Shown here: one piece after another, positions 148 to 13,182 of the stretch
Numbering within the stretch: the stretch's first letter is position 1
Layout: each line of letters starts with the position of its first letter
Assembly (NCBI GenBank): GCA_047286285.1
Contig: JBJBBP010000001.1
Location: 9,149 to 73,148 of the forward strand
Length of the DNA: 64,000 nt
Source: Synechococcus sp.
GTDB lineage: Bacteria > Cyanobacteriota > Cyanobacteriia > PCC-6307 > Cyanobiaceae
Direction: 5' to 3'
Notes under the pieces: model-generated
The model's input: the letters and a program-made list of their open reading frames with translations, nothing else
The model's database searches: none
Told to the model about the DNA's origin: nothing
Made by a program: the position numbers and the translations under genes

Positions 148-155
148 TATTTATC
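148..155 (-). promoter_or_regulatory. T4-type late-promoter-like box GATAAATA
   Basis: Minus-strand GATAAATA overlaps the TGA stop of the 1463-aa ORF and ends 36 nt upstream of the ATG at 111. Same octamer as at 18561..18568. Confidence 0.4.
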
Positions 156-3100
156 AGACTCCGTACTTGCCACGAGTAGCCTCGAAGTTTTGGGATACTT
201 CTGATCCTGACAATGCTGCAGAATAGATACGACACTCACCCACCTTTCCATTCAACCACTCTCCACCAGTGCTACCAATACCATAAGTTCCAACTCTAAA
301 GAAAGATGAGTTATTATTACCATTGCTTCCCATAGTAGTATTAGCTTCTAGTTGACCATTAACATAGATTTTAATGTCGTTTCCACTGTTACCATCATAT
401 GATCCTACTATATGATACCAAGTGTTAGTAGTTGCAGTAACACCACTGTTAGTATTAATACCACCTCCACCACCATTTCTTCCAACCCTAATAGTATTAT
501 TTGAAGCAAATGCAATTTGAGTATTAGATCCACCAATAGAACACACAGTTTGCCATGAACCTAAAGTAGAAATCTGTGCCCATGCTTCCATAGTAAATGG
601 AGTAGTGGGACTTGCTGCTATTGGAGAAGAAGAAGTTTCTATCTTATCATTTGTTCCATCAAACTCAAAGTATCCAGAATTATTATATACAGCTCCGTCG
701 ATTGTACCATTGAGAAGGTTACTTGAGAGGTTCTTGACTTTGGTTGGTGGTGTAATAGCAGTTCCATATGTTGTGATAAGTCTACCAGCAGAAGATGCTT
801 CTTCTAGTTGAGGTCCCCAAACATAAATCACATCACCTGAAACTGGAAGTCCACTATTGATGTTAGACTGGTATTGTGGTTCAAATCCTATGTTCACATT
901 TGTTTCATCACTTCCACCAATTGTTTTTGTAAAGGTAATTCTCTTCCATGATCCATCAGCAGGAATAGTTGAATTAGCATTTGTAGAATATGGAGCACCA
1001 CCTATTCTGAATTGAAGTACCTGACCTGCCATATTAGTTCCTGCCTTCACCCACATACTCATTGTATATGTTTTGTTTGCAGTTAAAGTACCTTGGTGAT
1101 AAAAATATGGATCAGTACCAGTAAATTCCCATTTTGTAGCAGTGTATGATCCATCTGGTGCTGATACTTCTTTAGTATTCTTTGTAATTATTGATGCAGC
1201 AGGACCAGCACCACTCCAACCAACACCTGGTTCAAATGATTTTGGAAATAAATTCTCAGTACGATCATAAGTCGCTCTGTTTGAGAAGTCATAATTCAGA
1301 ACTGCGTCACTACCATATACAATTTTAGTACCAATCTTGGGTGCTGTGTCAGGTGCTTCATTGATATACCGAGACTTAGTAGCATTATAATTTTGTTTAA
1401 CTTCTGTGGGATCTAAAGCTTTAGGATAAAATCTAAACTGTGAAATATCACCATCCATATATTCTCTGGTGTCACCACCACCAGATCCAGAACCATCCTC
1501 ATCTTTTCCTACATTGGTAGAAGGAAATAATCTATTTGTACCCCATACAATTCTTATTGCACCACCAGCTCCATTTGCTGCTCCATTATCACCATCATCT
1601 TCGTTACCAGTTCCTCCACCACCGTATCCTTTCTCTTGAATGCTAGTCTGTGGATTATCAGATGTTCCACCAGATCCTGCATAACCTCTCGATTGCTGAA
1701 CATCAAATGCACTTGTTCCACTTGCAGATACGCCAGCAGCTCCACTAACACCCTCTCCATAGATACCGACTCCACCACCACCTTCTGTAGGCAAATAATT
1801 TCCTGTGCTGTTTAAACCACCAGCACCTCCGCCACCTCCACCTGATCCAGCGGTTGCATTACTATTAGATCCATCACTACCACTACCACCATTACCAGAA
1901 TATCCACCAGCTCCTCCGCCACCACCACATTGGTGACCACTTTGTCCACGACCACCACGACCGCCGTTGCCACCGCCACCGCCGTATGTTCCTGAATAAT
2001 TTGTTCCACCATTGTTAACAACAACAGGATTATTATATTCTCCTTTACCACCGCCACCTGCTCTAAAAATAATAGTTCCACTATGACTACCTGTTCTAAT
2101 AACAGTATCTCCTCCAGCAGTAGCAGTATCATTATTAGGAGGTGGACTACCACCTTGACCACCAGCACCAACAGTTACGTACAAGCTTGTTTCTCCACTG
2201 ACATCAAGATTATTGATCCAACTCAAGGCACCACCGCCTCCGCCTCCTCCAGAGACACCATTTTGCTGAACAGTTGATGCAGATCCACCACCTCCACCAC
2301 CAACACCAACAACTGATACTGATGTTAGATTAGAAACAGTAAATACATACTGACCAGGAGTTGTAATCTCTGCTTCTCCTGCTGCAACACCTAGACTTTC
2401 TGTGGATGATCCAAGTACAAAAGGTGAAGTTAGTTCTAAACTTTTAATTGCATCAAAACTTGCTATGGTTTCGTCAACTATTTCTCCATCTACATACAGT
2501 CTTGTTTCACTACGTATAGCACTCATTGTACCAACAACATGATACCATTGACCTGTCTGAACAAGATCAGTAGAATCTACTTCATGAATACTATGACTTT
2601 GTACATATGTAAACATTTCAAATTTACCACTTGTACCTACACGTAATCCAGCTCCAGAAGCACCAGGTGATTGATCCCAAATATATCCTTTGGAACTACC
2701 TAGACTGGGTAAACTATCGAACCTAACCCATGTTTCAAAAGAAGCTTCTGTCAGACCACCAATATCAAATAGATAACTTTCAAGTCGTTTTCCATTTCCA
2801 ACCTCCCAATGAGCTACTGGAGTCGATACATGTGATGGAGTTCCCTGAGCAAAGAAGGAATAATAATCATCAGATTTTGCGTTACTATACCAAGTAGTAT
2901 TTCCAAATTTACTTTCAGGTAATAAATTTATTTCCATAAAATCCAGCACTCTAACAGCAGGAGCACTTACACCTAAGTTTAAATTAAATCCATCTAGAGT
3001 GTGCATAAAACTATCAGCACTATCCATCTGTCTCTTTTTGTTAGAGACTGGAGTAGCAAGATCATCAAAGACAATCTTACTAGCATTAAAAGGATATGTA

Positions 3101-4545
3101 ATTAAATCACTACTATCATTCCTAACAGAACCATCAGATAATCTTCCAATTTTATTTTCTGCATTTGCAACAATTGTATAGTCTATGTTTCCAGCACTAT
3201 TGCCAGGATCATATTCAAAACTACCTAAACCGTTACCAGATGTACTTACTTTACCAAAGAAATATCTATCTGGTTCTCCTGCTATAGAGCTGATTTGTTG
3301 ATCTCTAAACAAAACATAATAAAACGATGGGTCAGCATCTAAACTAGCATTACCTAAAGTGTTATTACCTTTACTAATTTGTCTTCTAAAAACTAAAGTG
3401 CCATCTTTAGAATACTTTGATACGAAAATATTAGCATTATTAAGAGCAAAAGGTCCTTCATTCTCTACAGATAAAACCACAGTCTGTTGCGTATCAGTAT
3501 CTGATTTGACATCAAATGGAACCATATTAGGAGCACTGTCAAGAGCTGTATGGTGATCTGTATGGTTCTCACGTTGCCATAATATATTTCCCTCAGGACT
3601 ATACTTAACTAAGAATTCTCCTACTCCATTATCTACAGGAACAACACCATCAATACTACCAACAACATAGATTAAATTATTGCCATCAATATAACAAGCA
3701 GTGCATCTTACAAATGCAGGTGAAATATCATCATTACTATTTCCACCTCTACCAGATATATTTCTCTCTAAAGTTCTATCCCATAAAATTTCTCCTGTTG
3801 CTGTATCAATCTTTACGATGTAACCTTTGTCTGCACTATCATCTTCTAGATATCCAACAGCAATTAATTGACCTTTACTATTAATAGAGATTTTTTCTAA
3901 CTTAACATCTCTACCTAACATAAAAGATGCCTGACCCCATTGAGGATTACCATAAGAATCATACTTTTCTACATATGCTAGAGCTTTATCTGAATTTGTG
4001 CCAGTATCTTTGACAGTACCACAAGCATAATAATTTGTTCCATCAGAACATACACCTGTATACTCTACGTTAGATGTTTGTGAAGTGGATTGCCAATCAA
4101 GATTACCATCATGTGAATACTTAGCTATCCATGGAACTCCTCTAAGTCCAACTTTACCAACCACCACTAAACTAGGTGTCGCAGTATCACCATCAATAAG
4201 TTCCATAGCACGTAAGGTTACCCTTGTGGAGTTAGCACCATAAGTGTGTTCAACGTGTATTGAACTTTGTAGTGTTGACGTTGGAACTGAAGGATTATTA
4301 TCTACATCTGGATCATAATCTCTCCTCTCAACCCATCCAATATTTTTATTATCACTTACTTTTGATGCTGTACCAGCAATAAAATATTCTGTTCCATAAG
4401 AAGAATATCTTATTTCGTCTGGTTGAAAGACATCAAGATCAGATGCACTTTTATCAACTGTTTTAAAAAAGTTTGTTACAACATCTGCTCCAGAGGAACC
4501 TAAAAGAAATAGATTCCGAGGAGGACTACTAAAACTCTGTGGCAT
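154..4545 (-). CDS. Giant multidomain virion (fibre/baseplate-module) protein: beta-propeller-like repeats, a split LamG/ConA-like domain with a ~300-aa glycine-rich insert, a CBM/jelly-roll-like module, and a C-terminal LamG-like domain
   Basis: 1463-aa ORF with an ATG start. N-terminal repeats of the type YVEKYDSYGNPQW / YIVKIDTATGEILW / FLVKYSPEGNILW. LamG-like signatures WYHVVGT..RLYVDGE and WYHIVGSYDG..IYVNGQLE..GECRIYSAALS. Gly-rich block GVGGGGGGS...GGAIRIVWG. YVWGPQLEE module. Confidence 0.85.
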   Translation of the reverse strand: MPQSFSSPPRNLFLLGSSGADVVTNFFKTVDKSASDLDVFQPDEIRYSSYGTEYFIAGTASKVSDNKNIGWVERRDYDPDVDNNPSVPTSTLQSSIHVEHTYGANSTRVTLRAMELIDGDTATPSLVVVGKVGLRGVPWIAKYSHDGNLDWQSTSQTSNVEYTGVCSDGTNYYACGTVKDTGTNSDKALAYVEKYDSYGNPQWGQASFMLGRDVKLEKISINSKGQLIAVGYLEDDSADKGYIVKIDTATGEILWDRTLERNISGRGGNSNDDISPAFVRCTACYIDGNNLIYVVGSIDGVVPVDNGVGEFLVKYSPEGNILWQRENHTDHHTALDSAPNMVPFDVKSDTDTQQTVVLSVENEGPFALNNANIFVSKYSKDGTLVFRRQISKGNNTLGNASLDADPSFYYVLFRDQQISSIAGEPDRYFFGKVSTSGNGLGSFEYDPGNSAGNIDYTIVANAENKIGRLSDGSVRNDSSDLITYPFNASKIVFDDLATPVSNKKRQMDSADSFMHTLDGFNLNLGVSAPAVRVLDFMEINLLPESKFGNTTWYSNAKSDDYYSFFAQGTPSHVSTPVAHWEVGNGKRLESYLFDIGGLTEASFETWVRFDSLPSLGSSKGYIWDQSPGASGAGLRVGTSGKFEMFTYVQSHSIHEVDSTDLVQTGQWYHVVGTMSAIRSETRLYVDGEIVDETIASFDAIKSLELTSPFVLGSSTESLGVAAGEAEITTPGQYVFTVSNLTSVSVVGVGGGGGGSASTVQQNGVSGGGGGGGALSWINNLDVSGETSLYVTVGAGGQGGSPPPNNDTATAGGDTVIRTGSHSGTIIFRAGGGGKGEYNNPVVVNNGGTNYSGTYGGGGGNGGRGGRGQSGHQCGGGGGAGGYSGNGGSGSDGSNSNATAGSGGGGGGAGGLNSTGNYLPTEGGGGVGIYGEGVSGAAGVSASGTSAFDVQQSRGYAGSGGTSDNPQTSIQEKGYGGGGTGNEDDGDNGAANGAGGAIRIVWGTNRLFPSTNVGKDEDGSGSGGGDTREYMDGDISQFRFYPKALDPTEVKQNYNATKSRYINEAPDTAPKIGTKIVYGSDAVLNYDFSNRATYDRTENLFPKSFEPGVGWSGAGPAASIITKNTKEVSAPDGSYTATKWEFTGTDPYFYHQGTLTANKTYTMSMWVKAGTNMAGQVLQFRIGGAPYSTNANSTIPADGSWKRITFTKTIGGSDETNVNIGFEPQYQSNINSGLPVSGDVIYVWGPQLEEASSAGRLITTYGTAITPPTKVKNLSSNLLNGTIDGAVYNNSGYFEFDGTNDKIETSSSPIAASPTTPFTMEAWAQISTLGSWQTVCSIGGSNTQIAFASNNTIRVGRNGGGGGINTNSGVTATTNTWYHIVGSYDGNSGNDIKIYVNGQLEANTTMGSNGNNNSSFFRVGTYGIGSTGGEWLNGKVGECRIYSAALSGSEVSQNFEATRGKYGV

Positions 4546-4557
4546 TTGTTTCTCCTC

Positions 4558-7500
4558 TTAACTGAAGTCAGTGTTTCCTTGACCGTATACTCTAATTACA
4601 CCACCACTATCCTTAACAATTAAGAATGTGAGAATGTCTGTATTGGATGTGGCAATAGGTGGAGAACCACCAGACCATCTAACACCAGTTGGAACATTAT
4701 TTCCATCCACAGTACAGTCATCACCATATGTAGACGCTGTGCTGGCATCAATAATTAATGTGATGGTTAGAGATTGTCCATTAGCAAGTGTGGTTCCATC
4801 TGGATCTGCTGTACTAAACGCCCAAGTATTAATTGCAGAGTTTGCAGTAGTAGTTTCACCACAAATAGTATTTGCAGCTGCAGTTATAACAGTTAAGGTA
4901 TTAGAACTCAATGAGAATCCAGTTGCCATACTACTAAATGTTTTTTCAATAACACGACCACCAAGAACAGCAGCACCATCAGTCTGAAGTGCAGGTTGAC
5001 CAGTAGCACCTACGAGAACACCAACAGATGTTAATGAAGAGTTAACAACACCATCACCAAGGGTTGTTCCACTTAATATTAATTGGTTTCCAATTGCAAA
5101 TTCTTTTCCGTTAGCAAGTTCTAAATTCTCAGTTGATACAAAATATTTTTTAGTTCTACTATGATCATAAAGGAATGTCTTATCTCCTGAACCACCAAGA
5201 GATACTGGAGTTCCTTTTAATATAATACCACCACCATCAGCTGCAGTATCAGTAGGACCACTAACGATGAATGTCTCTTCTGCAAGAGAGGTTGAAACAG
5301 CGTTTGATAATACAGCAATTTTAGTTTGAGGGTTTAGAGATACAATAGTAGTTCCTGCAGGTACAGCACCTCCTGCTGAACTAATTTGCATACCTTCAAT
5401 AATACCACTAATAGGAGTAATGTTACTGATAGTAGTATTACCATTGTTCACAGTAGCGGTAATGGTTAAGTTTACAACTGCTGCCAACTCAATATTTTTA
5501 TCATCAACCGTAAGTGTTGTACTGTTAATACTAACAACAGATCCATCAACACGAAGATCACCAATAATTCTTGCGTTACCATCAACTGTTAAATCATTTG
5601 GTGTAGTAACATTGAAGGAAGAATCTCCTCTAATCCATGCTCCAGTACCAGATCCAATAACAAGTTGTCTATCCCCAGAAGAATTTGGAGTAACATAAGT
5701 TGTACTGAGAGAGTTTTCTGTATCTGCAGGTCCGATAAGAACATTACCAACACCTGTTACTGCGTGTCCAGAGAAGTGTCCAATACAAACGTTATATCCA
5801 CTGCCAGGATTATTTTCTAAAGAACTAACACCAATAGCAATATTTCCAGATCCTGTATCGTTAATTAGAAGAGCATCCTTACCAATACCAATGTTGTTAT
5901 TTCCGTTATCATTATCTCGTAGTGCATTATAACCGAGTGCAGTATTGGCAGCACCTGCTACGTTACTGATAAGAGCTGAGTATCCTGCTGCAGTGTTTTG
6001 AGATCCTGCTTGGTTAGCAGAAAGAGCAGCGTAGCCAAGAGCAGTGTTTGAAGAAACTGCACTACCACCTCTACCAACTGTCATAGAAGCTGCATCAGTT
6101 CCTCTGATTGTAATATCATGATTATCAAAGTTGGGAGCACCTTCTATAAGTAGTGTATCAGTACTAGCATTACCTAGTGTGACATTACCATCAACTTGTA
6201 GATCATGTCGAATGGTTGTAGTTCCAGTTGTAGCACCCATAGTGATGTCAGTGGCATCTCCACCAAAATCAATATCCAATGCAGATGTATTAATAAGATC
6301 AAATGCATTACTTGAGGTAAGAATACTGTCAACAATAACTGGGTTGGTATCAAACATCAACTTACCAGATCCAGACTTATCCTGAATCTTACCAGACAAC
6401 TGAGTTGATGTTGTTAAAGCAAACTGTCCTAAATGATAGGTATTATATGCAACCTTAGCACCAGAACCACCACCATTATCAAAGTTTACCTGAACAGCAC
6501 CACCAGCATCAGAAGCATTTAATGTAATAGAACTGTTGACAGTTAATGTTTTTAGATCTGCCATATCAAATGTGGAGGCAGATGTTGCAGCGATTGCTAA
6601 TCCATTGTAAGTTGTTGCAGAAGCAGAACCCAGAATTGGGTTAGTCATCGTTGGAGATGTTAGAGTCTTATTGGTAAGAGTCTGTGTATCATCTTCTGTT
6701 ACAAATCTCTTTGCAACTGATCCATCATAAGATCTCCAGTATGTACCAGCTTCATACCATTCAATTCTATTGAAACTTAAGACTCCACCTGTGCCATCAG
6801 TAGTTCTATTGACCTGAATACCTCCGTCAGTACCAGTAAGACCATTTCCTTTTCTAAGTTCAATAACATTATCTTCTACAACTAAAGTTGTAGTCTCTAA
6901 AATTGTTTGAGTACCCTGTACAAGTAAGTCACCGTCAATTGTTACAGTGTTTCCATCATCAGTAATACTACCATTTGCAAACTGACCATTAGCATCATCC
7001 CATACAGGAATTCTGTTATCAATTAAGTTGTTAGCGTTCTTAATTGAGAAATTATTACTACTAAAGACAAGACCCTCTCCTGCACCAAATGATGCACCAG
7101 TATCACTGTTTAGAGAATCAATTTCAATCTCAATTGTTCCATCGTTAAGAGTGGTTTGAGTAATTGTAGTAGCACCTGATTGTTTAAATCTAAAATTACC
7201 TGATGCTAATGCTTCTACACCAGAAGCAAGTTGAGTTATAGTATTGGTGTCTGTACTATCAATTTCAATTGTACTTCCACTTTGAGATACTTGTACGTTT
7301 CCACCAAGAGCATTTCCACCAGTGACAGTAACATCTCCAGATACAAATGATCCAGATGCACCACCTTTTAATCTTGTAATTGTATCAACAGAAGCAATTG
7401 TTATAGTAGGATCATTATTAACATCTAGACCTTGAGTGATTGTTACCTCACTTCCTTCAAGGAAAGTAAAATTACCAGCAGAAAAAACTTGTCCTGTCCC

Positions 7501-8214
7501 ACCTCTTAATTGAGTAATGGTATCATCATTTGCAGTATTAATATTAATTGTTTTACTTGCACTATCCTGAGTAACAGTAGCTCCTCCTGATCCAGAGATA
7601 GTCATCGCACCAGATTGTGCAGTTCCACCAACTGCTGACTGAAGAGTAGTAACAGTGTCAGCATCTACAACAGTTCCAGATAAAGTAATAACTTCATTGG
7701 ATCTATCAATTGTTAATGCTAAAGCTTTAGATCCTGATGGAATAGTTTGTGGTGCGGAAACTGCTAGTTTAACTTCTTCTGATCCTGTGCCAGATCCACC
7801 TGCCGTTAATCTAATAATTTTTTGAGTAGCTACGCTACCATCATCAGCTGTAAATGCATATGTTGTATTAGTATCTGGAGTATTATAACTGTCACCTAAA
7901 GATACGATGGTTCCATTCAAACTAATAGAAGAACTTACTAACGATGAGTTAGCAATATTGGATATTGTATTAAGACTTGCATCAACAATACATGTCTCAA
8001 GTGTTTTATTAGTTAAAGTCTGTGTTTGATCTAGATAAACATCACCAGGACTGTCCCAGAAGACGACTGTTCCATCGCTGGTCAGATACTTTCCCGCACC
8101 AGTATCTCCACTGACAATGATGCCATTGCCAGACAGGTCTAAATTGTCACCCGATACAATTTCTTCAATCTTCTTTGATACGGAGTTAACAATTAACGGA
8201 AAACGATCAGCCAT
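4558..8214 (-). CDS. Tail-fibre-like structural protein (1218 aa)
   Basis: ATG start, 12 nt downstream of it lies the next gene. N-terminus MADRFPLIVNS..DLSGNGIIVSGDTGAGKYLTSDG. Two TQTLTNKTL motifs. Long Thr/Ser/Gly/Asn-rich fibre-like sequence. Confidence 0.8.
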   Translation of the reverse strand: MADRFPLIVNSVSKKIEEIVSGDNLDLSGNGIIVSGDTGAGKYLTSDGTVVFWDSPGDVYLDQTQTLTNKTLETCIVDASLNTISNIANSSLVSSSISLNGTIVSLGDSYNTPDTNTTYAFTADDGSVATQKIIRLTAGGSGTGSEEVKLAVSAPQTIPSGSKALALTIDRSNEVITLSGTVVDADTVTTLQSAVGGTAQSGAMTISGSGGATVTQDSASKTININTANDDTITQLRGGTGQVFSAGNFTFLEGSEVTITQGLDVNNDPTITIASVDTITRLKGGASGSFVSGDVTVTGGNALGGNVQVSQSGSTIEIDSTDTNTITQLASGVEALASGNFRFKQSGATTITQTTLNDGTIEIEIDSLNSDTGASFGAGEGLVFSSNNFSIKNANNLIDNRIPVWDDANGQFANGSITDDGNTVTIDGDLLVQGTQTILETTTLVVEDNVIELRKGNGLTGTDGGIQVNRTTDGTGGVLSFNRIEWYEAGTYWRSYDGSVAKRFVTEDDTQTLTNKTLTSPTMTNPILGSASATTYNGLAIAATSASTFDMADLKTLTVNSSITLNASDAGGAVQVNFDNGGGSGAKVAYNTYHLGQFALTTSTQLSGKIQDKSGSGKLMFDTNPVIVDSILTSSNAFDLINTSALDIDFGGDATDITMGATTGTTTIRHDLQVDGNVTLGNASTDTLLIEGAPNFDNHDITIRGTDAASMTVGRGGSAVSSNTALGYAALSANQAGSQNTAAGYSALISNVAGAANTALGYNALRDNDNGNNNIGIGKDALLINDTGSGNIAIGVSSLENNPGSGYNVCIGHFSGHAVTGVGNVLIGPADTENSLSTTYVTPNSSGDRQLVIGSGTGAWIRGDSSFNVTTPNDLTVDGNARIIGDLRVDGSVVSINSTTLTVDDKNIELAAVVNLTITATVNNGNTTISNITPISGIIEGMQISSAGGAVPAGTTIVSLNPQTKIAVLSNAVSTSLAEETFIVSGPTDTAADGGGIILKGTPVSLGGSGDKTFLYDHSRTKKYFVSTENLELANGKEFAIGNQLILSGTTLGDGVVNSSLTSVGVLVGATGQPALQTDGAAVLGGRVIEKTFSSMATGFSLSSNTLTVITAAANTICGETTTANSAINTWAFSTADPDGTTLANGQSLTITLIIDASTASTYGDDCTVDGNNVPTGVRWSGGSPPIATSNTDILTFLIVKDSGGVIRVYGQGNTDFS

Positions 8215-8256: not shown

Positions 8257-10725
8257 TTAAGATATAATGATACTTCCCGACATGTCTAAATGATTTTGAC
8301 AAACGTAATACAAAGTAGTTCCTGCCATACCAAATGTGAAAAGTAATACCTCACCTTCAATAGCTCCACCTCCCATACTACCACCATCATCCCAATTTTG
8401 TCCGTTAACCCAAGTAGGAAGTTGATCGCCAGTACCAGGAGTAAGTGCAGTCTTAAGTAGAAATGGATGAACATCGTATGGAGGACCACCAACGTATGTT
8501 CCTAAACTAACATTAAATTTGATTATATCATTAGCATTACAATTAAGTGTTGGGTTGGCAGCATTATCATGATTGGTTACTCTATCAGAACCATTAAAAA
8601 TATATGCAGTGTTTCCAGAGTAAGTAACACTAACTGTTATTACTTGACCAGTTCCTGGTGCTGATCTATTAAGTGTTGAGACTCTAGGAAAAGTAAGACC
8701 ACTAGTAGATCTAAGTCCTCTTGGTTCAGACATCAATCCTGTTACACCCTCTCTAGGATTTTTGGCATGTAGATATAAATTTGGACTATCTTTACTGCAA
8801 CTAGGATCAGCAAATGTTCCAGCAGTATTTGTTACTTGTATTACGTCGATATCTCCTACCATGCCAGGATGCACAGCACACTGATACTTAAATGAACCTG
8901 CAGTATTAGGTGTCCATGACACTGTGTTGTTACCAGTAGAACCTTGACCAGTAGCAGGTGGTGTACTTACATTTGCACCACCAGCTGATACTCTGATATA
9001 AAATGGGTGAATAGTTGATACGTTACTCAAGTTAAAATTAACTGTGTCACCAACATATATTGTTACAGGTGCATTGTTACCAGATACAGAACCAAGTCTA
9101 TCAGTTCCATTGAGTGTATACACCGATGCTGACGGTGCAGTTGTTGTTATGTTATAAGTTGTTGGTGTAGATGATGCACCACCAGGATTAGAATCAAAAG
9201 TCATATCACCAAAGATGCTATGATCTTTTAAATATTTTCTTGCAATCGAATTTGTAAATCTATCCTTACCAGTAGCTAGACATGCTAGTACACCTGCTAC
9301 CTGTGGTGATGCCATGCTAGTTCCTTGGATAGGATAGTAAAAGTTTGTTGGTGCTCCACCATACTTATTGTCAGGAATTCCAGCACTATTGTATGCAGAC
9401 AGAATATTATTTCCTGGTGCAAAGATATCAATATTAGGACCGAAGTTAGAGTAAGTAGATCTTCTGAAATCAGCATAGTTACTTAAAGCTCCAACACAAA
9501 TTGCATTAGGAGAATTTCCTGGCGATGATCCTCTGTTATAAAAAACTGTTCCTAGTCCAGAAATAGTTACTGTATTATAGTAATCAGGATCACCATCAGA
9601 AACACAGTGAAAATCATTATTACCAGCTGCTGCAACAATTACAACACCATCTGAAATAGCATCTTCAATATCAGCGTTGGTAAATGCGTTATCTGCATTA
9701 AGTCTCATTTTGTTAGGTGCAAAACCAAAGTCCACTTCGATTCCACCCCAAGTCCAACCACTAGGATTAGGATTACTACTACTGTAAGTTACTCCTCTGT
9801 AATCTATTTGAATAATATCACTAAGATCAAGACTTTCTTTCTCTAAAATATCATCTAAGGAATAACCATAACTCCAACTATGATTTGTAATTGTTGGATT
9901 CTTTATACCAGTGGCAGGATTAATTGCTTTGTTCTGATGGAAAGCTCTTAAGTAATCAAAGATTAATAGATCTGGCACAGGTGTTCCCGTGTTTGCAAGA
10001 TTACCAAGGACTTGCAAACTGTAGATATTTGCTTCTCTTGCCCATCCATAGTGTTGTCCTGCTACTGTTCCAGCAACGTGTGTGCCATGACTCTCAGTGT
10101 TAGTAGCATTATCAAAGTAATTTGAATATGGTGCAGCAGGTGTTGATTGACCATCATCATCAATTGATGTTACAAGACTATTAAGTTCAGTATACCAATC
10201 ATAAGTTTTAAATCTTGTCGTACCTGTGCTAGGACTATCCCATTCACCACAGTCAATTGATACTGGATCATCACAGATCACTACATCAACATGCTTACCA
10301 TCACTAAAAATATCTACAGCATCAATTGATTGTTCGTAAGATCCACCTTCACTAATAAGACCCCATTGGTTCTTAGCTCTCTGTACAGTATCACCAGCAC
10401 AATGTAACTGTCCCCACTGCTTATTTTGATCGTTTAAACCACCTGAATTATATCCTTTCCAAAAACTTCCACTAGCATTGTATGTCGTATAGTTAGTAGT
10501 CTCTCTACCAATAGATATACCACGTTCTTCTGGTGGTAATTGTACATCCCAAACTCTAGGATCTTGACGTAATTTTTCTGCTTGCTCCTCATTCATCTTA
10601 TAATGAGTGTTCCTACTCATAGGACGTTTCATTACTAGATGATAATCATTAGACTCCATCTCACTGTAAAACTGCTCTAGATCCTCATGTTTGTAGAGCG
10701 TTACGATGTAGATCTTATCTTCCAT
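8257..10725 (-). CDS. Pro-subtilase (S8-like serine protease with I9-like propeptide) fused to two C-terminal cupredoxin-like modules
   Basis: 822-aa ORF with an ATG start. Propeptide-like IYIVTLYK..AEKLRQDPRVWDV. Subtilase motifs in order: VVICDD (D152), SHGTHVAGT (H213), AAAGNN (N369), GTSMASPQVAG (S470). Copper-site-like motifs IHPFY..YQCAVHPGMVG and VHPFL..YYVCQNHLDMSG. Confidence 0.85.
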   Translation of the reverse strand: MEDKIYIVTLYKHEDLEQFYSEMESNDYHLVMKRPMSRNTHYKMNEEQAEKLRQDPRVWDVQLPPEERGISIGRETTNYTTYNASGSFWKGYNSGGLNDQNKQWGQLHCAGDTVQRAKNQWGLISEGGSYEQSIDAVDIFSDGKHVDVVICDDPVSIDCGEWDSPSTGTTRFKTYDWYTELNSLVTSIDDDGQSTPAAPYSNYFDNATNTESHGTHVAGTVAGQHYGWAREANIYSLQVLGNLANTGTPVPDLLIFDYLRAFHQNKAINPATGIKNPTITNHSWSYGYSLDDILEKESLDLSDIIQIDYRGVTYSSSNPNPSGWTWGGIEVDFGFAPNKMRLNADNAFTNADIEDAISDGVVIVAAAGNNDFHCVSDGDPDYYNTVTISGLGTVFYNRGSSPGNSPNAICVGALSNYADFRRSTYSNFGPNIDIFAPGNNILSAYNSAGIPDNKYGGAPTNFYYPIQGTSMASPQVAGVLACLATGKDRFTNSIARKYLKDHSIFGDMTFDSNPGGASSTPTTYNITTTAPSASVYTLNGTDRLGSVSGNNAPVTIYVGDTVNFNLSNVSTIHPFYIRVSAGGANVSTPPATGQGSTGNNTVSWTPNTAGSFKYQCAVHPGMVGDIDVIQVTNTAGTFADPSCSKDSPNLYLHAKNPREGVTGLMSEPRGLRSTSGLTFPRVSTLNRSAPGTGQVITVSVTYSGNTAYIFNGSDRVTNHDNAANPTLNCNANDIIKFNVSLGTYVGGPPYDVHPFLLKTALTPGTGDQLPTWVNGQNWDDGGSMGGGAIEGEVLLFTFGMAGTTLYYVCQNHLDMSGSIIIS
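8260..8643 (-). other. Cupredoxin-like module 2 of the 822-aa protein (aa ~695-822)
   Basis: NDIIKFNVS..YDVHPFLLK ... TTLYYVCQNHLDMSGSIIIS. Candidate ligands are H753, C809, H812 and M815. Their codons were checked: CAT 8469..8467, TGT 8301..8299, CAT 8292..8290, ATG 8283..8281. Confidence 0.55.
8830..9144 (-). other. Cupredoxin-like module 1 of the 822-aa protein (aa ~528-632)
   Basis: VTIYVGDTVNFNLSNVSTIHPFYIR ... GSFKYQCAVHPGMVGDIDV. Candidate ligands are H573, C616, H619 and M622. Their codons were checked in the DNA: CAC 9009..9007, TGT 8880..8878, CAT 8871..8869, ATG 8862..8860. Confidence 0.6.
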
Positions 10726-10726
10726 T

Positions 10727-11572
10727 TTAAGCCTCTAGTTTGAGATAGGTAAGAGTTACACCAACAACTGCTGTGGATCCACTTTGGTTTACAATTTTAG
10801 CGTATGTTGTTCCTGTTCCTCCCTCGTTATAACAAATAGTAGCAGGAGTAATAGCTTGTGTTTGAGCACCAGTAGTAATTACCTCAGAAAGAACACCAGA
10901 ACCAGGTGTTGGATCAGTAAATTGAGATCTAGTAGCATCACTTGTCCTAGCAGATGTACTAGAATATAATGTTACCCATGCAGCATGTGTTGTTTGAATG
11001 CTCATCAACGCATATGATTTGGGAGTTGAGAAAGAAACATTAACATAAGATAGGTTTGCAATAGACCATGATCCTGACACTGTAGTTCTTGTTTGTAGTC
11101 CTCCAGAAGGAGGAAGAGATTTCCATTGACTAGTAGTGCCATCATATGTTAATACATCACCAGTCGTAACAGTTCCAAGAGTTACATCAGAAAGACCATT
11201 TATTCCTAGTGTAGTTAAATATCCTGCACTAGCGTGGTTACCCCAACCATATGCTGTATTCCAATTGGTAATATTGGTGCTGGAAATACCAGAAGCTGCA
11301 GATGCACCAAATACAGGATCAGTTTCTGACGTTAGATAACCAGAAAGATCAGGTGGAGTATAAGAAAAAACACCAGTAGCACTGGTGTATGAAAGAGATG
11401 GAGTTCCAGCAGAGTTAGTAGTAACACTAAAGAGAGTCGTGTCAGTAGCACTCGCTCCAGCACCAGCTGCTTGCCATGAAGATCCGTTCCACGAGTAAGT
11501 AATACCAGCTACCGTATAGGTATAAGATCCATTTGTTGGTTGTCCTGCAGTTGCAGGAAAATTGATTGCCAT
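10727..11572 (-). CDS. Short tail-fibre-like protein (281 aa)
   Basis: N-terminus MAINFPATAG..ITYSWNGSSW parallels that of ORF 11603..12862. One ETDPVF..NWNTAYGWGNHASAGYLT repeat. The C-terminal ~115 aa (AWVTLYSS..DPTPGSGVLSEV..TLTYLKLEA) parallel the C-terminus of ORF 15527..18523. Confidence 0.8.
   Translation of the reverse strand: MAINFPATAGQPTNGSYTYTVAGITYSWNGSSWQAAGAGASATDTTLFSVTTNSAGTPSLSYTSATGVFSYTPPDLSGYLTSETDPVFGASAASGISSTNITNWNTAYGWGNHASAGYLTTLGINGLSDVTLGTVTTGDVLTYDGTTSQWKSLPPSGGLQTRTTVSGSWSIANLSYVNVSFSTPKSYALMSIQTTHAAWVTLYSSTSARTSDATRSQFTDPTPGSGVLSEVITTGAQTQAITPATICYNEGGTGTTYAKIVNQSGSTAVVGVTLTYLKLEA
11214..11272 (-). repeat. DNA repeat copy X (46 nt perfect, 59 nt with 2 mismatches) shared with 17991..18049
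   Basis: gttaaatatcctgcactagcgtggttaccccaaccatatgctgtat is identical at 11214..11259 and 17991..18036. It encodes part of the WGNH fibre repeat. Confidence 0.9.
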
Positions 11573-11596: not shown

Positions 11597-11604
11597 TATT
11601 TATT
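11597..11604 (-). promoter_or_regulatory. T4-type late-promoter-like box AATAAATA
   Basis: Overlaps the TAA stop of ORF 11603..12862 and ends 24 nt upstream of the ATG at 11572. Confidence 0.4.
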
Positions 11605-12862
11605 AAGCGTCAGTTATAGCTAGGATTGCTGATTTAAAATCTTCAAAACTACTAGAGGCATTCAATGCTTCTTTTAATTTAGCAAGAGTTATAACATAAC
11701 TTGTTGTTTGTGCAGATCCACCTGCATCATGTTGTGCAGTTTTAATGAAAGGTCCTTCATGATAAAGAGTATTATCTGACAAGAATAAGTGGCGAATCTT
11801 ATACTCAGCAGATCCAATGTCATGTGCAGCATTAGTATCAGGAAGAATATGTGCCTTCATACTTACAGTTCCAGATGCACCAATGGTAGTTGCATCTGCC
11901 AATGGTGGAGATGCATCAACCCACTGAGAACTATCGGTATCTGTGTAGTATACTTTCAGACGACCAGTGTCACTTTCCCACCATAGATCACCAGCACTAG
12001 GAGATCCTGCAGGAATAGTATCAGAGATAGTTACGTTAGCACCACCCTGAGCACCGCCACCACCTTGTGCAGCAGCTGGTGCCCATGCAGAACCATTCCA
12101 AGTTAATACATCATTTGAACTAGGAGCAGTACTAGAGACATTACCAAGGTCACCAATCTCGGATCCTTCATCTAGTAATTGAACCCATGTACCACCATGT
12201 GCAAAGTATCCATGACCCTCAGCATGAACATGTGCAAACATACCATGATAGGTAGTTGCATTAACAGCATTAAGTGCAGTTAGATCAGCAAAGTTATTGG
12301 AATAAAAAATCTTTCCTGTAGTTGTAATATCAGTAGTAGTTGTTGCACCTCTACCTGTTACAGTAGCAAGAGTATCTGCCTCTGCTGTTAAATATCCTCC
12401 AGTGCTATGGTCACCCCAGTTGTAAGCGGTGTTCCAGTTAGTAATATTTGTTCCTGTAATACCACCAGCTGGTGATGCAGCGAATACAGGATCTGTTTCT
12501 GTGTATGAAGTTAAAAAATTAGGAGTCCAATTTTCCCAAGCAGCGTTAGCAACACTGTACTTTAGTAACTGTGCATCTTGTAGAGTTGTTATACTTACAT
12601 CAGTATGAGAACTAATAGATCCTGTAGAAGTTAGATATCCAGCAGCACCATGATCTCCCCAACCATATGATGTGTCCCAATTTGTAATATGCGTTGATAG
12701 AATATTACTGGCAGGAGACGCACTAAAGATAGGATCAGTTTCAGATGAGGTAAACTGGAATCTACCTAACACCTTCCACGTTGTTCCATCCCATGTCCAT
12801 GTTACACCACCAGAAGTATATGTGTCATTAATATTCGGTGATGCAGGAAAATCTAATGCCAT
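11603..12862 (-). CDS. Tail-fibre-like protein (419 aa)
   Basis: N-terminus MALDFPASPN..VTWTWDGTTW. Two ETDP(I/V)F..NW(D/N)T(S/A)Y.WGDH..GYLT repeats. The SAGDLWWESDTGRLKVYYTDTDSSQWVDASPP motif is shared with ORF 15527..18523. Confidence 0.8.
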   Translation of the reverse strand: MALDFPASPNINDTYTSGGVTWTWDGTTWKVLGRFQFTSSETDPIFSASPASNILSTHITNWDTSYGWGDHGAAGYLTSTGSISSHTDVSITTLQDAQLLKYSVANAAWENWTPNFLTSYTETDPVFAASPAGGITGTNITNWNTAYNWGDHSTGGYLTAEADTLATVTGRGATTTTDITTTGKIFYSNNFADLTALNAVNATTYHGMFAHVHAEGHGYFAHGGTWVQLLDEGSEIGDLGNVSSTAPSSNDVLTWNGSAWAPAAAQGGGGAQGGANVTISDTIPAGSPSAGDLWWESDTGRLKVYYTDTDSSQWVDASPPLADATTIGASGTVSMKAHILPDTNAAHDIGSAEYKIRHLFLSDNTLYHEGPFIKTAQHDAGGSAQTTSYVITLAKLKEALNASSSFEDFKSAILAITDA

Positions 12863-12887: not shown

Positions 12888-12895
12888 TATTTAGT
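12888..12895 (-). promoter_or_regulatory. Weak late-promoter-like box ACTAAATA
   Basis: Overlaps the TAA stop of ORF 12895..13182 and ends 25 nt upstream of the ATG at 12862. One mismatch to the NATAAATA pattern. Confidence 0.3.
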
Positions 12896-13182
12896 TATCT
12901 ATTGTAGTACCCTCTTGGGAACAGTAATCCAAAGTATGGTCTTCTACCTCTTAGGAAACCACGTTGAGGACGACGCTTCTGATATGGTTGATTGTTTTGA
13001 GGTCCAGAATAATCTAAGTTATTAATATCAAAGTTATTAGGTGTACCTGCCTCAGCAGTTACTCTATCAATAGAAGAAAAAACAGTTGCGATGAAAGCAG
13101 TTGCAGTATTTGGTTGCAACTTGGTTTCATCAAAACCATCTATAGGAGCAGCAGGTGCTTCCGAGAGTGTTATTAATGCCAT
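12895..13182 (-). CDS. Small hypothetical protein (95 aa) with an Arg/Gly/Tyr-rich C-terminal tail
   Basis: The ATG shares 1 nt with the upstream TGA (TGATG). Tail sequence QKRRPQRGFLRGRRPYFGLLFPRGYYNR. No recognisable family. Confidence 0.55.
   Translation of the reverse strand: MALITLSEAPAAPIDGFDETKLQPNTATAFIATVFSSIDRVTAEAGTPNNFDINNLDYSGPQNNQPYQKRRPQRGFLRGRRPYFGLLFPRGYYNR

What the first reader, a model, noticed from the sequence alone, without database searches (positions are those of the whole stretch)
8257..10725. Pro-subtilase fused to two cupredoxin modules with intact blue-copper ligand sets, inside the tail-fibre module
The 822-aa ORF lies between fibre-like genes. Read from N to C it contains three parts.
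1. An I9-like propeptide (IYIVTLYK..AEKLRQDPRVWDV).
2. A subtilase core with the catalytic signature in canonical order: D152 in VVICDD, H213 in SHGTHVAGT, N369 in AAAGNN, S470 in GTSMASPQVAG.
3. Two beta-sandwich-sized modules. Each carries a complete type-1 copper ligand set with amicyanin-like C-x2-H-x2-M spacing. Module 1 has H573 (IHPFY) ... C616/H619/M622 (YQCAVHPGMVG). Module 2 has H753 (VHPFL) ... C809/H812/M815 (YYVCQNHLDMSG).
All eight ligand codons were read directly in the DNA.
Free-standing plastocyanin genes and head-maturation proteases are known in cyanophages. I cannot map a secreted-type pro-protease welded to tandem cupredoxins in the host-recognition region onto any described phage function.
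Possible roles are a virion-borne protease acting on the host envelope or S-layer, a fibre-maturation protease, or a copper/redox-gated adsorption device.
Basis: partly seen in the sequence, partly recalled or inferred. Interest (0 to 1): 0.78.

Follow-up and report, generated by a model that had tools for sequence, protein, structure and literature searches.

The report
Cyanophage fibre-module protease with blue-copper domains
A marine cyanobacterial virus encodes, among its tail-fibre genes, a subtilisin-type protease fused to two small domains that keep the full metal-binding residues of blue copper proteins; the same domain also sits on baseplate and fibre proteins of many related viruses, and I found no paper describing it.

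Summary

Domain assignments:
- **Protease:** Pfam Peptidase_S8 scores 98 bits. D152/H213/N369/S470 are invariant in 121 homologues.
- **Propeptide:** the N-terminus is I9-like. AF2 gives the beta-alpha-beta-beta-alpha-beta topology, but the Pfam I9 hit is sub-threshold (E=0.0045).
- **C-terminal modules:** both are cupredoxins. A family profile hits plastocyanin at 8e-6 with all four ligands aligned. All top 50 Foldseek PDB hits are cupredoxin-domain proteins.

The His/Cys/His/Met quartet supplies four of only seven fully invariant columns in 183 module copies. In a wider sample, 146 of 159 modules keep all four ligands and the other 13 have at least one replaced, mostly two to four at once.

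The fusion is not rare: 2,893 database proteins match at E<=1e-10, including five isolated Synechococcus phages. The module is also mobile. It occurs on gp9 baseplate connectors and tail fibres, and in the isolate collection only in cyanophages.

Ten literature searches found no description. There is no signal peptide, so "secreted-type" does not hold.

Most likely it is a virion-associated, self-activating protease carrying copper-stabilised surface modules. That function is inferred, not shown.

The parts
8257..10725 (-). Whole ORF: 822 codons plus TAA stop (8257-8259). The ATG at 10723-10725 lies one base after the stop of the upstream ORF, with AGAGG about 9 nt upstream.
10522..10725 (-). 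Residues 1-68: I9-like propeptide (beta-alpha-beta-beta-alpha-beta). No signal peptide.
   Evidence: AF2 secondary structure E4-10 H13-25 E29-32 E39-44 H46-52 E58-62. Pfam PF05922 E=0.0045, residues 6-60, below the gathering score. Highly conserved in the family.
10486..10521 (-). Residues 69-80: low-confidence junction after the propeptide, the probable region of autoprocessing (inferred).
   Evidence: pLDDT below 50 for residues 71-78
9190..10485 (-). Residues 81-512: subtilase (S8A, proteinase-K-like) catalytic domain with D152, H213, N369 and S470.
   Evidence: Pfam PF00082 98.3 bits. PDB phmmer proteinase K 1.4e-12. Foldseek TMt 0.69-0.76. Catalytic residues invariant in 121 sequences.
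8836..9165 (-). Residues 521-630: cupredoxin module 1, with ligands H573, C616, H619 and M622.
   Evidence: NCBIfam amicyanin E=0.0036
8650..8835 (-). Residues 631-692: conserved linker. GTFADxxCxKxSPN is partly ordered. A predicted-disordered stretch follows, carrying the motif PRGLRSTSGLTFPRVSTLNR (GLTFPRV at 8680-8700).
   Evidence: Invariant or near-invariant G636 F638 D640 C643 R658 G663 R672 P680 R681. pLDDT below 50 for residues 660-692. Motif recurrence.
8260..8649 (-). Residues 693-822: cupredoxin module 2, with ligands H753, C809, H812 and M815.
10727..11572 (-). Upstream neighbour, 281 aa, fibre-related (phrog_9627 / phrog_9729 tail fiber), abutting the protease gene.
4558..8214 (-). 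Downstream neighbour, 1218 aa, virion structural protein (phrog_6002). The gene at the same position in S-RSM4 is annotated as similar to an MS-identified S-PM2 structural protein.
12895..13182 (-). 95-aa ORF in the same fibre module. Its C-terminus RGFLRGRRPYFGLLFPRGYYNR carries the same short motif as the protease linker. It is a homologue of the C-terminal half of 'cupredoxin module + tail' proteins.

Best explanation
The gene encodes an accessory component of the tail-fibre and baseplate-periphery module of a T4-like cyanomyovirus (Kyanoviridae-like). It is a cytoplasmically made pro-subtilase.

Proposed mechanism:
1. The N-terminal I9-like propeptide acts as an intramolecular chaperone and temporary inhibitor, and is removed by autoprocessing.
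2. The active proteinase-K-like domain is carried on the virion.
3. The two C-terminal cupredoxin modules are of the type that also decorates gp9 and the fibres. Each binds one copper through His/Cys/His/Met, which staples the exposed beta-sandwich.
4. These modules present the enzyme to, or hold it at, the proteinaceous outer surface of the host. There the protease clears surface protein so that the baseplate can reach its receptor.

Shown here: domain identities, intact and selected catalytic and ligand residues, conserved position in the fibre operon, and sharing of the module with true baseplate and fibre proteins. Inferred: copper occupancy, autoprocessing, presence in the virion, and the substrate.
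For: - **S8 domain:** Pfam 98.3 bits, and D/H/N/S invariant in 121 sequences. The fold matches proteinase-K-like enzymes. Long Foldseek alignments reach pro-forms and multidomain subtilases: ProN-Tk-SP, fervidolysin, pro-subtilisin E.
- **Propeptide:** the fold fits I9, with a Pfam I9 match at E=0.0045.
- **Cupredoxin sequence evidence:** the module profile hits plastocyanin at 8e-6, then rusticyanin, amicyanin, pseudoazurin and nitrite-reductase domains. The ligands align to the plastocyanin ligands.
- **Cupredoxin fold evidence:** AF2 gives the modules pLDDT above 90, and all top 50 Foldseek PDB hits are cupredoxin-domain proteins, down to 2e-9.
- **Ligand conservation:** the four ligands are among only 7 fully invariant columns in 183 unique modules. 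In the wider sample, 146 of 159 modules read HCHM, and the other 13 have at least one ligand replaced, mostly two to four together.
- **Module location elsewhere:** it is found only in cyanophages among 50,697 phage records. It sits on gp9 connectors and tail-fibre proteins, which keep the ligands.
- **Synteny:** the order fibre genes, S8, virion structural proteins is conserved in S-H9-1, S-RSM4 and P-SSM2. In P-SSM2 a module-less S8 gene lies next to a fibre protein with two modules.
- **Virion evidence:** a distant S8-containing protein of S-SCSM1 is flagged as a virion protein. That phage's paper reports a 45-protein virion proteome by mass spectrometry (PMC9602691).
Against: - There is no proteomic evidence for this orthologue group. 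S-PM2, Syn9 and S-SM1, the cyanomyoviruses with virion proteomes named in PMC3037559, are not among the 55 phage records with a homologue.
- The S-SCSM1 homologue is only 29% identical and has no cupredoxin module.
- Copper loading in the cytoplasm is not established.
- The first ligand His is followed by an invariant Pro. By my recollection classical cupredoxins usually have Asn there, so the site may differ from textbook type-1 sites.
- Ligand geometry could not be measured, because the tools give no model coordinates.
- The substrate is unknown.
- Relatives such as S-RSM4 and S-WAM2 have the protease without modules, so the modules are dispensable for the core function.
Confidence: 0.42

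Rival explanations
1. Assembly or maturation protease. The enzyme works inside the infected cell on fibre-module proteins, or only on itself as PCSK9 does. It is absent from the virion, or present only as an inactive structural piece. The conserved disordered motif ...G-L-x-F/Y-P-R-V/G..., found in its own linker and at the C-termini of small fibre-module proteins, would be its cleavage or docking site.
For: The motif recurs in 88 of 120 family members. It also forms the extreme C-terminus of the 95-aa ORF at 12895..13182 and of ~190-aa 'module + tail' proteins. Sequence and fold searches hit PCSK9 strongly. By my knowledge, self-cleaving S74 chaperone domains are established in phage fibres; a P-SSM5 'Peptidase S74 domain-containing protein' also carries the module.
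Against: No cleavage has been shown. The motif also occurs on contigs where no S8 gene is seen nearby. The I9 plus proteinase-K-like architecture is typical of broad-specificity enzymes that act in trans. Sharing a module with exposed gp9 and fibre proteins fits a virion location.
Confidence: 0.25
2. Redox or copper sensor. The type-1 copper centres on the protease, gp9 and the fibres switch between Cu(I) and Cu(II), or between apo and holo forms, with ambient redox, light-driven ROS or copper level. That switch would gate adsorption or protease activity.
For: The ligands are conserved more strictly than anything else in the module, and when lost they are mostly lost several at a time. This points to selection on the metal site itself. 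The modules sit on gp9, which in T4 connects the long fibres to the baseplate (established T4 biology).
Against: Nothing here bears on electron transfer or conformational change. Metal stapling of the fold explains the same conservation. About 8% of modules have lost one or more ligands while staying in the same kinds of protein.
Confidence: 0.12
3. Non-structural host-directed protease (auxiliary gene). The enzyme degrades host proteins during infection, for example to recycle amino acids, and the cupredoxin modules target it to copper- or photosynthesis-related partners.
For: By profile, cyanobacterial plastocyanins are the closest solved relatives of the module. Cyanophages are known to carry petE (PMC3037559).
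Against: The gene abuts its neighbours inside the fibre and structural operon, and its position is conserved. The module is attached to bona fide baseplate and fibre proteins. No targeting or signal peptide is present.
Confidence: 0.08
4. The modules are metal-free Ig-like decoration domains. The H/C/H/M residues would be conserved for packing rather than for copper.
For: This protein's own Pfam Copper-bind score is below threshold. The His-Pro pair is, by my recollection, atypical. Some modules lack the ligands yet persist.
Against: All four residues align to the plastocyanin ligands. They supply four of the 7 invariant columns. A lone surface-loop Cys kept in 100% of 183 copies, and mostly lost together with the His residues, is the pattern expected of a metal site.
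Confidence: 0.1

Closest known systems
Proteinase-K-like subtilases (MEROPS S8A) made with an I9 propeptide and C-terminal beta-sandwich domains, e.g. fervidolysin (1R6V) and Tk-SP (3AFG)
   Same: The order is propeptide, catalytic domain, then C-terminal beta-sandwich domains. The triad order is D-H-S with an oxyanion Asn. Foldseek aligns 684-749 columns to these multidomain pro-forms.
   Different: There is no signal peptide. The gene is phage-encoded in a fibre operon. The catalytic domain is about 150 residues longer than proteinase K. The C-terminal domains are cupredoxins with a metal-ligand set, not the kinds of accessory domain I recall for those enzymes.
Small blue copper proteins: plastocyanin, amicyanin, rusticyanin, pseudoazurin (Pfam PF00127 / PF13473)
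   Same: The fold is a Greek-key beta-sandwich. The ligands are His ... Cys-x2-His-x2-Met, with the short amicyanin-type loop. The profile E-value to plastocyanin is 8e-6, with ligands in register.
   Different: The modules are domains of large virion-module proteins, not free electron carriers. An invariant Pro follows the first His. The family-specific N-terminal half (Y..G.DR ... GD.I.F) is not shared. No redox partner is apparent.
Ig-like and other decoration domains on tailed-phage structural proteins (e.g. T4 Hoc; Fraser et al. 2006, from my own knowledge)
   Same: It is a small beta-sandwich module, shuffled among fibre, baseplate and other virion proteins of one phage group, in variable copy number (1-7 per protein).
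   Different: It carries a strictly conserved metal-ligand quartet. It is also fused to an enzyme.
Cyanophage S8 peptidase genes already annotated in genomes (P-SSM2 PSSM2_297 'contains PF00082 domain'; P-HM1/P-HM2 'S8 peptidase'; S-H9-1 'subtilisin-like serine protease')
   Same: Same gene family and same locus (PMC3037559).
   Different: Those annotations stop at the protease domain. Neither the propeptide, nor the cupredoxin modules, nor their ligand sets are described. P-SSM2_297 itself lacks the modules.

Membership tests
Peptidase S8 (subtilase) | Significant match to the family profile above the curated threshold | tested here: met
   PF00082 E=6.5e-28, 98.3 bits against a cut-off of 21.8
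Peptidase S8 (subtilase) | Catalytic Asp, His and Ser in that order, plus an oxyanion-hole Asn | tested here: met
   D152, H213, N369 and S470 are present. D, H and N are invariant in 121 of 121 sequences; Ser is present in 120, with one gap.
Peptidase S8 (subtilase) | Subtilisin alpha/beta fold | tested here: met
   AF2 mean pLDDT 85. Foldseek against proteinase-K-like enzymes gives E about 1e-16 and TMt 0.69-0.76.
Peptidase S8 (subtilase) | Proteolytic activity | not testable with these tools
   Needs an enzyme assay
Inhibitor I9 propeptide | Match to PF05922 above the gathering score | tested here: inconclusive
   E=0.0045, 18.1 bits against 21.2, residues 6-60 on profile positions 2-72 of 82. 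Four of 6 family N-termini match. A profile search against PDB found nothing.
Inhibitor I9 propeptide | beta-alpha-beta-beta-alpha-beta fold directly N-terminal to an S8 domain | tested here: met
   E4-10 H13-25 E29-32 E39-44 H46-52 E58-62
Inhibitor I9 propeptide | Autocatalytic removal | not testable with these tools
   Needs expression and N-terminal sequencing
Cupredoxin / type-1 blue copper domain | Match to Copper-bind (PF00127) or Cupredoxin_1 above threshold | tested here: inconclusive
   This protein scores 13.3-15 bits against 21.2. Nine of 16 representative modules hit PF00127 (best 2.5e-5) and 5 of 16 hit PF13473. Many orthologues have precomputed PF00127/PF13473. The family profile hits plastocyanin in PDB at 8e-6.
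Cupredoxin / type-1 blue copper domain | Greek-key beta-sandwich (cupredoxin) fold | tested here: met
   Both modules have pLDDT above 90 and are all-beta. All top 50 Foldseek PDB hits are cupredoxin-domain proteins (Cu nitrite reductases, laccases and other multicopper oxidases, coagulation factors V/VIII), with E down to 2e-9.
Cupredoxin / type-1 blue copper domain | His ... Cys ... His ... Met ligands in register with known sites | tested here: met
   The HMM alignment to Phormidium plastocyanin places H, C, H and M on that protein's H, C, H and M. The two modules align to each other with the ligands matched.
Cupredoxin / type-1 blue copper domain | Ligands under selection | tested here: met
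   100% conserved in 183 unique modules, supplying 4 of only 7 invariant columns. 146 of 159 modules read HCHM; the rest have at least one ligand replaced, mostly several together.
Cupredoxin / type-1 blue copper domain | Ligand atoms converge to type-1 geometry in the model | not testable with these tools
   Structure prediction returns no coordinates
Cupredoxin / type-1 blue copper domain | Binds copper (600 nm band, EPR) | not testable with these tools
   Needs biochemistry
Cyanomyovirus fibre/baseplate module protein | Encoded inside the conserved fibre/structural gene block | tested here: met
Cyanomyovirus fibre/baseplate module protein | Shares modules with proven baseplate and fibre proteins | tested here: met
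   Module found on gp9 (P-RSM4 and others), on the P-SSM2 fibre protein PSSM2_298 and on the S-CAM1 fibre
Cyanomyovirus fibre/baseplate module protein | Detected in purified virions | not tested
   The only evidence is for a 29%-identical S8-containing protein of S-SCSM1, flagged 'virion protein' in the record; the paper reports virion mass spectrometry.

The most novel reading that the evidence does not exclude
Cyanomyovirus particles carry genuine type-1 copper centres on gp9, on the fibres and on this fibre-module protease. These centres would act as redox, light or copper sensors that gate adsorption or unleash the protease. The result would be a metallo-redox switch in a virus attachment apparatus. 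The recurring disordered G-L-x-F/Y-P-R motif would be the docking or cleavage element that links the parts.
Probability: 0.12. Interest if true: 0.9.

Novelty: new variant of a known kind. Interest (0 to 1): 0.62.

Why it matters
If the modules bind copper, marine cyanophage particles would be copper metalloprotein assemblies. The family is large: 2,458 clusters at 50% identity match at E<=1e-10. A strictly conserved metal site on the adsorption apparatus is a concrete, mutable handle on host recognition in the most abundant phototroph-virus systems. A virion-borne broad-type protease would be a proteolytic counterpart to the polysaccharide depolymerases of tailspikes. The work also gives a usable definition of the module: H-P ... 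Y-x-C-x2-H-x2/3-M-x-G-x-I. That definition can re-annotate many 'hypothetical' and 'Ig-like' fibre proteins.

Tried and rejected
- **Plus-strand translation** of the coordinates gives only stops. The gene is on the minus strand.
- **Profile of A1 against PDB** was swamped by the S8 part of the full-length rows and said nothing about the modules. I repeated it with a module-only alignment, A3.
- **Profile of the propeptide against PDB** found only chance hits.
The single-protein scan of 185,579 species genomes gave one locus, a MAG contig that has the phage synteny.
- **Ten literature searches** found no description of the fusion or of a cupredoxin domain on a phage virion. The terms combined cyanophage, cupredoxin, plastocyanin-like, subtilisin, PF00082, tail fiber and virion.
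- **Rejected: head-maturation protease.** The fold family and the locus are both wrong.
- **Rejected: free petE-type plastocyanin.** The modules are domains of an 822-aa protein, and no other module or T1-Cu loop exists in the window.
- **Rejected: chance ligand pattern.** Conservation rules it out.
- **Ligand distances** could not be measured, because no model coordinates are exposed.
Full report
**1. What is there**

The coordinates 8257..10725 hold one 822-codon ATG ORF on the minus strand. The plus strand at these coordinates is full of stops. The ATG lies one base after the stop codon of the upstream 281-aa ORF, with an AGAGG about 9 nt upstream.

I read their codons directly.

The N-terminus MEDKIYIVTLYK has no hydrophobic signal sequence.

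**2. The source**

The window has no close DNA match at the gene itself. Its replication genes are 78-80% identical to those of Synechococcus myoviruses Sf-CH1b, S-RSM4, S-WAM2 and ACG-2014e/j. So this is an undescribed T4-like cyanomyovirus, Kyanoviridae-like.

The genes around the ORF are fibre or virion-structural:
- 154..4545: Laminin_G_3, CBM_4_9, and a 'virion structural protein' PHROG.
- 4558..8214: phrog_6002, virion structural protein.
- 10727..11572, 11603..12862 and 15527..18523: tail-fibre PHROGs.

The same order (fibre genes, a small gene, S8 gene, large structural proteins) occurs in three isolates:
- S-H9-1.
- S-RSM4. There the next gene is annotated as similar to an MS-identified S-PM2 structural protein.
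- P-SSM2. PSSM2_297 is annotated 'contains PF00082 domain'.

**3. Protease**

- Pfam Peptidase_S8 gives E=6.5e-28, 98.3 bits against a cut-off of 21.8.
- The best solved relatives are proteinase K and Vibrio/Serratia proteinase-K-like enzymes.
- The full-length AF2 model has mean pLDDT 85.
- Foldseek matches those enzymes at E about 1e-16 and TMt 0.69-0.76.
- Foldseek also gives long alignments to pro-forms and multidomain subtilases: ProN-Tk-SP 3AFG, fervidolysin 1R6V, unprocessed pro-subtilisin E 3WHI, EpiP and PCSK9.
- In an alignment with 120 database homologues, D152, H213 and N369 are invariant in 121 of 121, and S470 in 120 with one gap.

**4. Propeptide**

AF2 gives E4-10, H13-25, E29-32, E39-44, H46-52 and E58-62, which is the beta-alpha-beta-beta-alpha-beta arrangement of I9 prosegments. 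A low-confidence junction follows at residues 71-78.

Scanned alone, residues 1-72 hit Pfam Inhibitor_I9 at E=0.0045 (18.1 bits, gathering score 21.2), covering profile positions 2-72 of 82. Four of six divergent family N-termini hit it. A profile search of PDB found nothing.

I call it I9-like. The fold and position tests are met; the curated sequence threshold is not.

**5. The two C-terminal modules**

*Sequence evidence*
- On its own the protein gives only a sub-threshold Copper-bind hit (E=0.11).
- The two modules are homologous to each other (BLASTP E=2e-4) with His, Cys, His and Met in register.
- I collected 245 module instances from the 166 database proteins and the query itself. Of these, 207 are complete and 183 unique.
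- A 16-sequence representative alignment (A3) searched as a profile against PDB finds cyanobacterial plastocyanins at 8e-6. Rusticyanin, a nitrite-reductase cupredoxin domain, amicyanin, pseudoazurin and auracyanin follow.
- The printed alignment puts the module's H-P on the plastocyanin ligand His, and Y-x-C-x2-H-x2-M-x-G-x-I-x-V on Y-Y-C-A-P-H-R-G-A-G-M-V-G-K-I-T-V.
- Individually, 9 of 16 modules hit PF00127 (best 2.5e-5) and 5 of 16 hit PF13473.
- NCBIfam gives a weak amicyanin hit, E=0.0036.

*Fold evidence*
- An AF2 model of residues 505-822 gives both modules pLDDT above 90, all-beta.
- All top 50 Foldseek PDB hits are cupredoxin-domain proteins: copper nitrite reductases, laccases and other multicopper oxidases, and coagulation factors V/VIII. 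E reaches 2e-9.
- The low TM-scores and large rmsd reflect the undefined relative orientation of the two modules across a disordered linker.

**6. Are the ligands under selection?**

- In 183 unique complete modules only seven columns are 100% invariant: H, P (the H-P pair), Y, C, H, M and I. All four ligand positions are therefore among them.
- If invariance fell at random on about 110 columns, the chance that four named columns all lie among seven is about 6e-6 (my arithmetic).
- Spacing is C-x2-H-x2-M in 166 modules and x3 in 17.
- In the full-length family, module 1 has H/C/H/M in all 50 sequences that possess it, and module 2 in 116 of 121. The five exceptions are truncated ORFs or proteins with a different, glycine-rich C-terminal domain.
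- An exhaustive profile search of 1.84 billion cluster representatives finds 6,030 proteins at E<=1e-3 and 2,458 at E<=1e-10.
- In 159 complete modules from the best 149 of these, 146 are H-C-H-M.
- The other 13 have at least one ligand replaced. Most replace two to four together (QSSM, QSVM, HSSV, NSNA, GDDC and others); one changes only the Met (HCHL).
- All-or-mostly-none behaviour is what a metal site predicts and what a packing role does not.
- One peculiarity: the first His is followed by an invariant Pro. By my own knowledge plastocyanin, azurin and amicyanin have Asn there, so the second shell is not textbook.

**7. The fusion is common and the module is mobile**

- The full-length protein has 2,893 database relatives at E<=1e-10, the closest 93% identical.
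- Many carry precomputed PF00127/PF13473 plus PF00082. JGI's pipeline names some 'plastocyanin/subtilisin family serine protease'.
- Family architectures: S8 alone (S-RSM4; S-WAM2 matched only over residues 3-516), S8 plus one module (about 680 aa), plus two (about 800-830 aa), plus three to five domain hits (920-1040 aa), or plus a glycine-rich domain.
- Isolates with full-length homologues at about 49% identity are S-H9-1, S-CAM4 and ACG-2014e/i/j.

The module itself, searched by tblastn against 50,697 phage records, occurs in 54 records. All are cyanophages or marine single-cell viral assemblies. It lies on these proteins:
- gp9 'baseplate wedge tail fiber connector' in P-RSM4, S-TIM4, P-TIM40, S-WAM1, S-B64, S-H35, S-SZBM1 and P-RSM6.
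- Tail-fibre proteins in P-SSM2, S-CAM1 and Sf-CH5/8.
- S8 proteins.

BFVD fold search agrees. P-RSM4 gp9 ends in ...GGAHPFRIQ...LYYQCTIHSQMNGTITVVS. P-SSM2 PSSM2_298 carries two modules with intact ligands.

In P-SSM2 the module-less S8 gene sits directly upstream of that two-module fibre protein. This is a gene-neighbour version of the fusion seen here.

In 185,579 species genomes the close-relative scan found one locus, a 15.7-kb MAG contig with the phage synteny. Within this window only the S8 ORF has modules.

**8. The linker**

Residues 631-692 are conserved in sequence: G636, F638, D640, C643, R658, G663, R672, P680 and R681 are invariant or nearly so. Yet residues 660-692 are predicted disordered.

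This linker holds ...PRGLRSTSGLTFPRVSTLNR.... The same short motif appears elsewhere:
- It forms the extreme C-terminus of the 95-aa ORF at 12895..13182 (RGFLRGRRPYFGLLFPRGYYNR*).
- It forms the C-terminus of ~190-aa 'cupredoxin module + tail' proteins (...GRRPASGMLYPRGVYNK*).
- That 95-aa ORF is homologous to the tail half of those proteins (E=2e-14).
- Its upstream 779-aa partner is conserved too (E=3e-119).

I read the motif as a docking peptide or a cleavage/pseudo-substrate site. That is untested.

**9. Mechanism**

*Shown:* an intact, selected subtilase; an I9-like prosegment; two cupredoxin domains with selected type-1 ligand sets; conserved residence in the fibre operon; module sharing with genuine baseplate and fibre proteins.

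*Inferred:*
- The prosegment folds and then leaves the enzyme. This is established behaviour of I9/S8 pairs.
- The modules bind copper, which stabilises an exposed beta-sandwich.
- The protein rides on the particle and digests host surface protein during adsorption.

Support for a virion location is indirect. A 29%-identical S8-containing 1411-aa protein of S-SCSM1 is flagged 'virion protein' in the record. That phage's paper reports 45 virion proteins by mass spectrometry (PMC9602691). S-PM2, Syn9 and S-SM1, the cyanomyoviruses with virion proteomes named in PMC3037559, have no homologue in the phage search.

I put 0.42 on this reading and 0.25 on an intracellular or self-only maturation role. 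The redox-sensor, non-structural and metal-free readings get about 0.1 each.

**10. Novelty**

S8 genes at this locus have been annotated since the P-SSM2 genome. An 'S8 peptidase' in P-HM1/P-HM2 is mentioned in PMC3037559. Pipelines have also labelled the cupredoxin part.

Ten full-text searches found no paper that describes the fusion, the propeptide, or any cupredoxin or blue-copper domain on a phage virion. The parts are known kinds. Their combination, and above all a conserved type-1 copper ligand set on a virus's attachment apparatus, is a new variant.

The finding as written is accurate. Its main understatement is that the protease is only one host of a large, cyanophage-specific copper-module family.

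Noticed in passing
window 8680-8700 (-) and 12895-13182 (-); P0026, P0028-P0035, P0037, P0221, P0297: A short linear motif, roughly [RK]RPxxG[LMQ]x[FY]PR[GV]xxN[KR], recurs. It sits in the predicted-disordered linker of the S8 protein and at the extreme C-terminus of the 95-aa fibre-module ORF. It also sits at the C-terminus of ~190-aa 'cupredoxin + tail' metagenome proteins, or just upstream of a terminal module. It may be a docking peptide or a protease site.
   Followed up: partly
window 13182-15521 (-), 779 aa; L008 3221-5689: A large protein with no PHROG or Pfam hit. It is conserved (33% identity, E=3e-119) and always followed by the small motif-bearing ORF, so it looks like an uncharacterised two-gene unit of the fibre module. 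In other phages the small partner carries a cupredoxin module.
   Followed up: partly
L005 526-1758 (P-RSM4 gp9); one search hits H106-H122: In many cyanomyoviruses the gp9 baseplate-wedge/tail-fibre connector ends in a cupredoxin module with intact His/Cys/His/Met. The profile of phrog_677 includes this module at positions ~286-410 of 412.
   Followed up: partly
L003 5575-7410 and 7431-10715 (P-SSM2 PSSM2_297 / PSSM2_298): In P-SSM2 the S8 gene has no cupredoxin module, but the adjacent fibre protein ('tail spike protein' / 'putative T4-like proximal tail fiber') has two. This is a split version of the fusion in this window.
   Followed up: partly
L007 (PARM01000056.1, MAG 'Gammaproteobacteria bacterium SP107'): This 15.7-kb contig, binned into a gammaproteobacterial MAG, carries the cyanophage fibre, phrog_9627 and S8-cupredoxin synteny. 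It is probably a mis-binned phage fragment.
   Followed up: partly
window 154-4545 (-), 1463 aa: A giant virion structural protein with two Laminin_G_3 (ConA-like lectin) stretches, a CBM_4_9 carbohydrate-binding domain and a Gly_rich_2 domain. It is a likely host-glycan-binding fibre component next to the protease block.
   Followed up: no
P0200, P0283 (2,404-2,677 aa) and others: About 8% of modules in the wider family have one or more copper ligands replaced, mostly several together (e.g. Q/S/S/M). Some sit in tandem in giant proteins. They are natural 'apo' controls for the metal-site hypothesis.
   Followed up: partly
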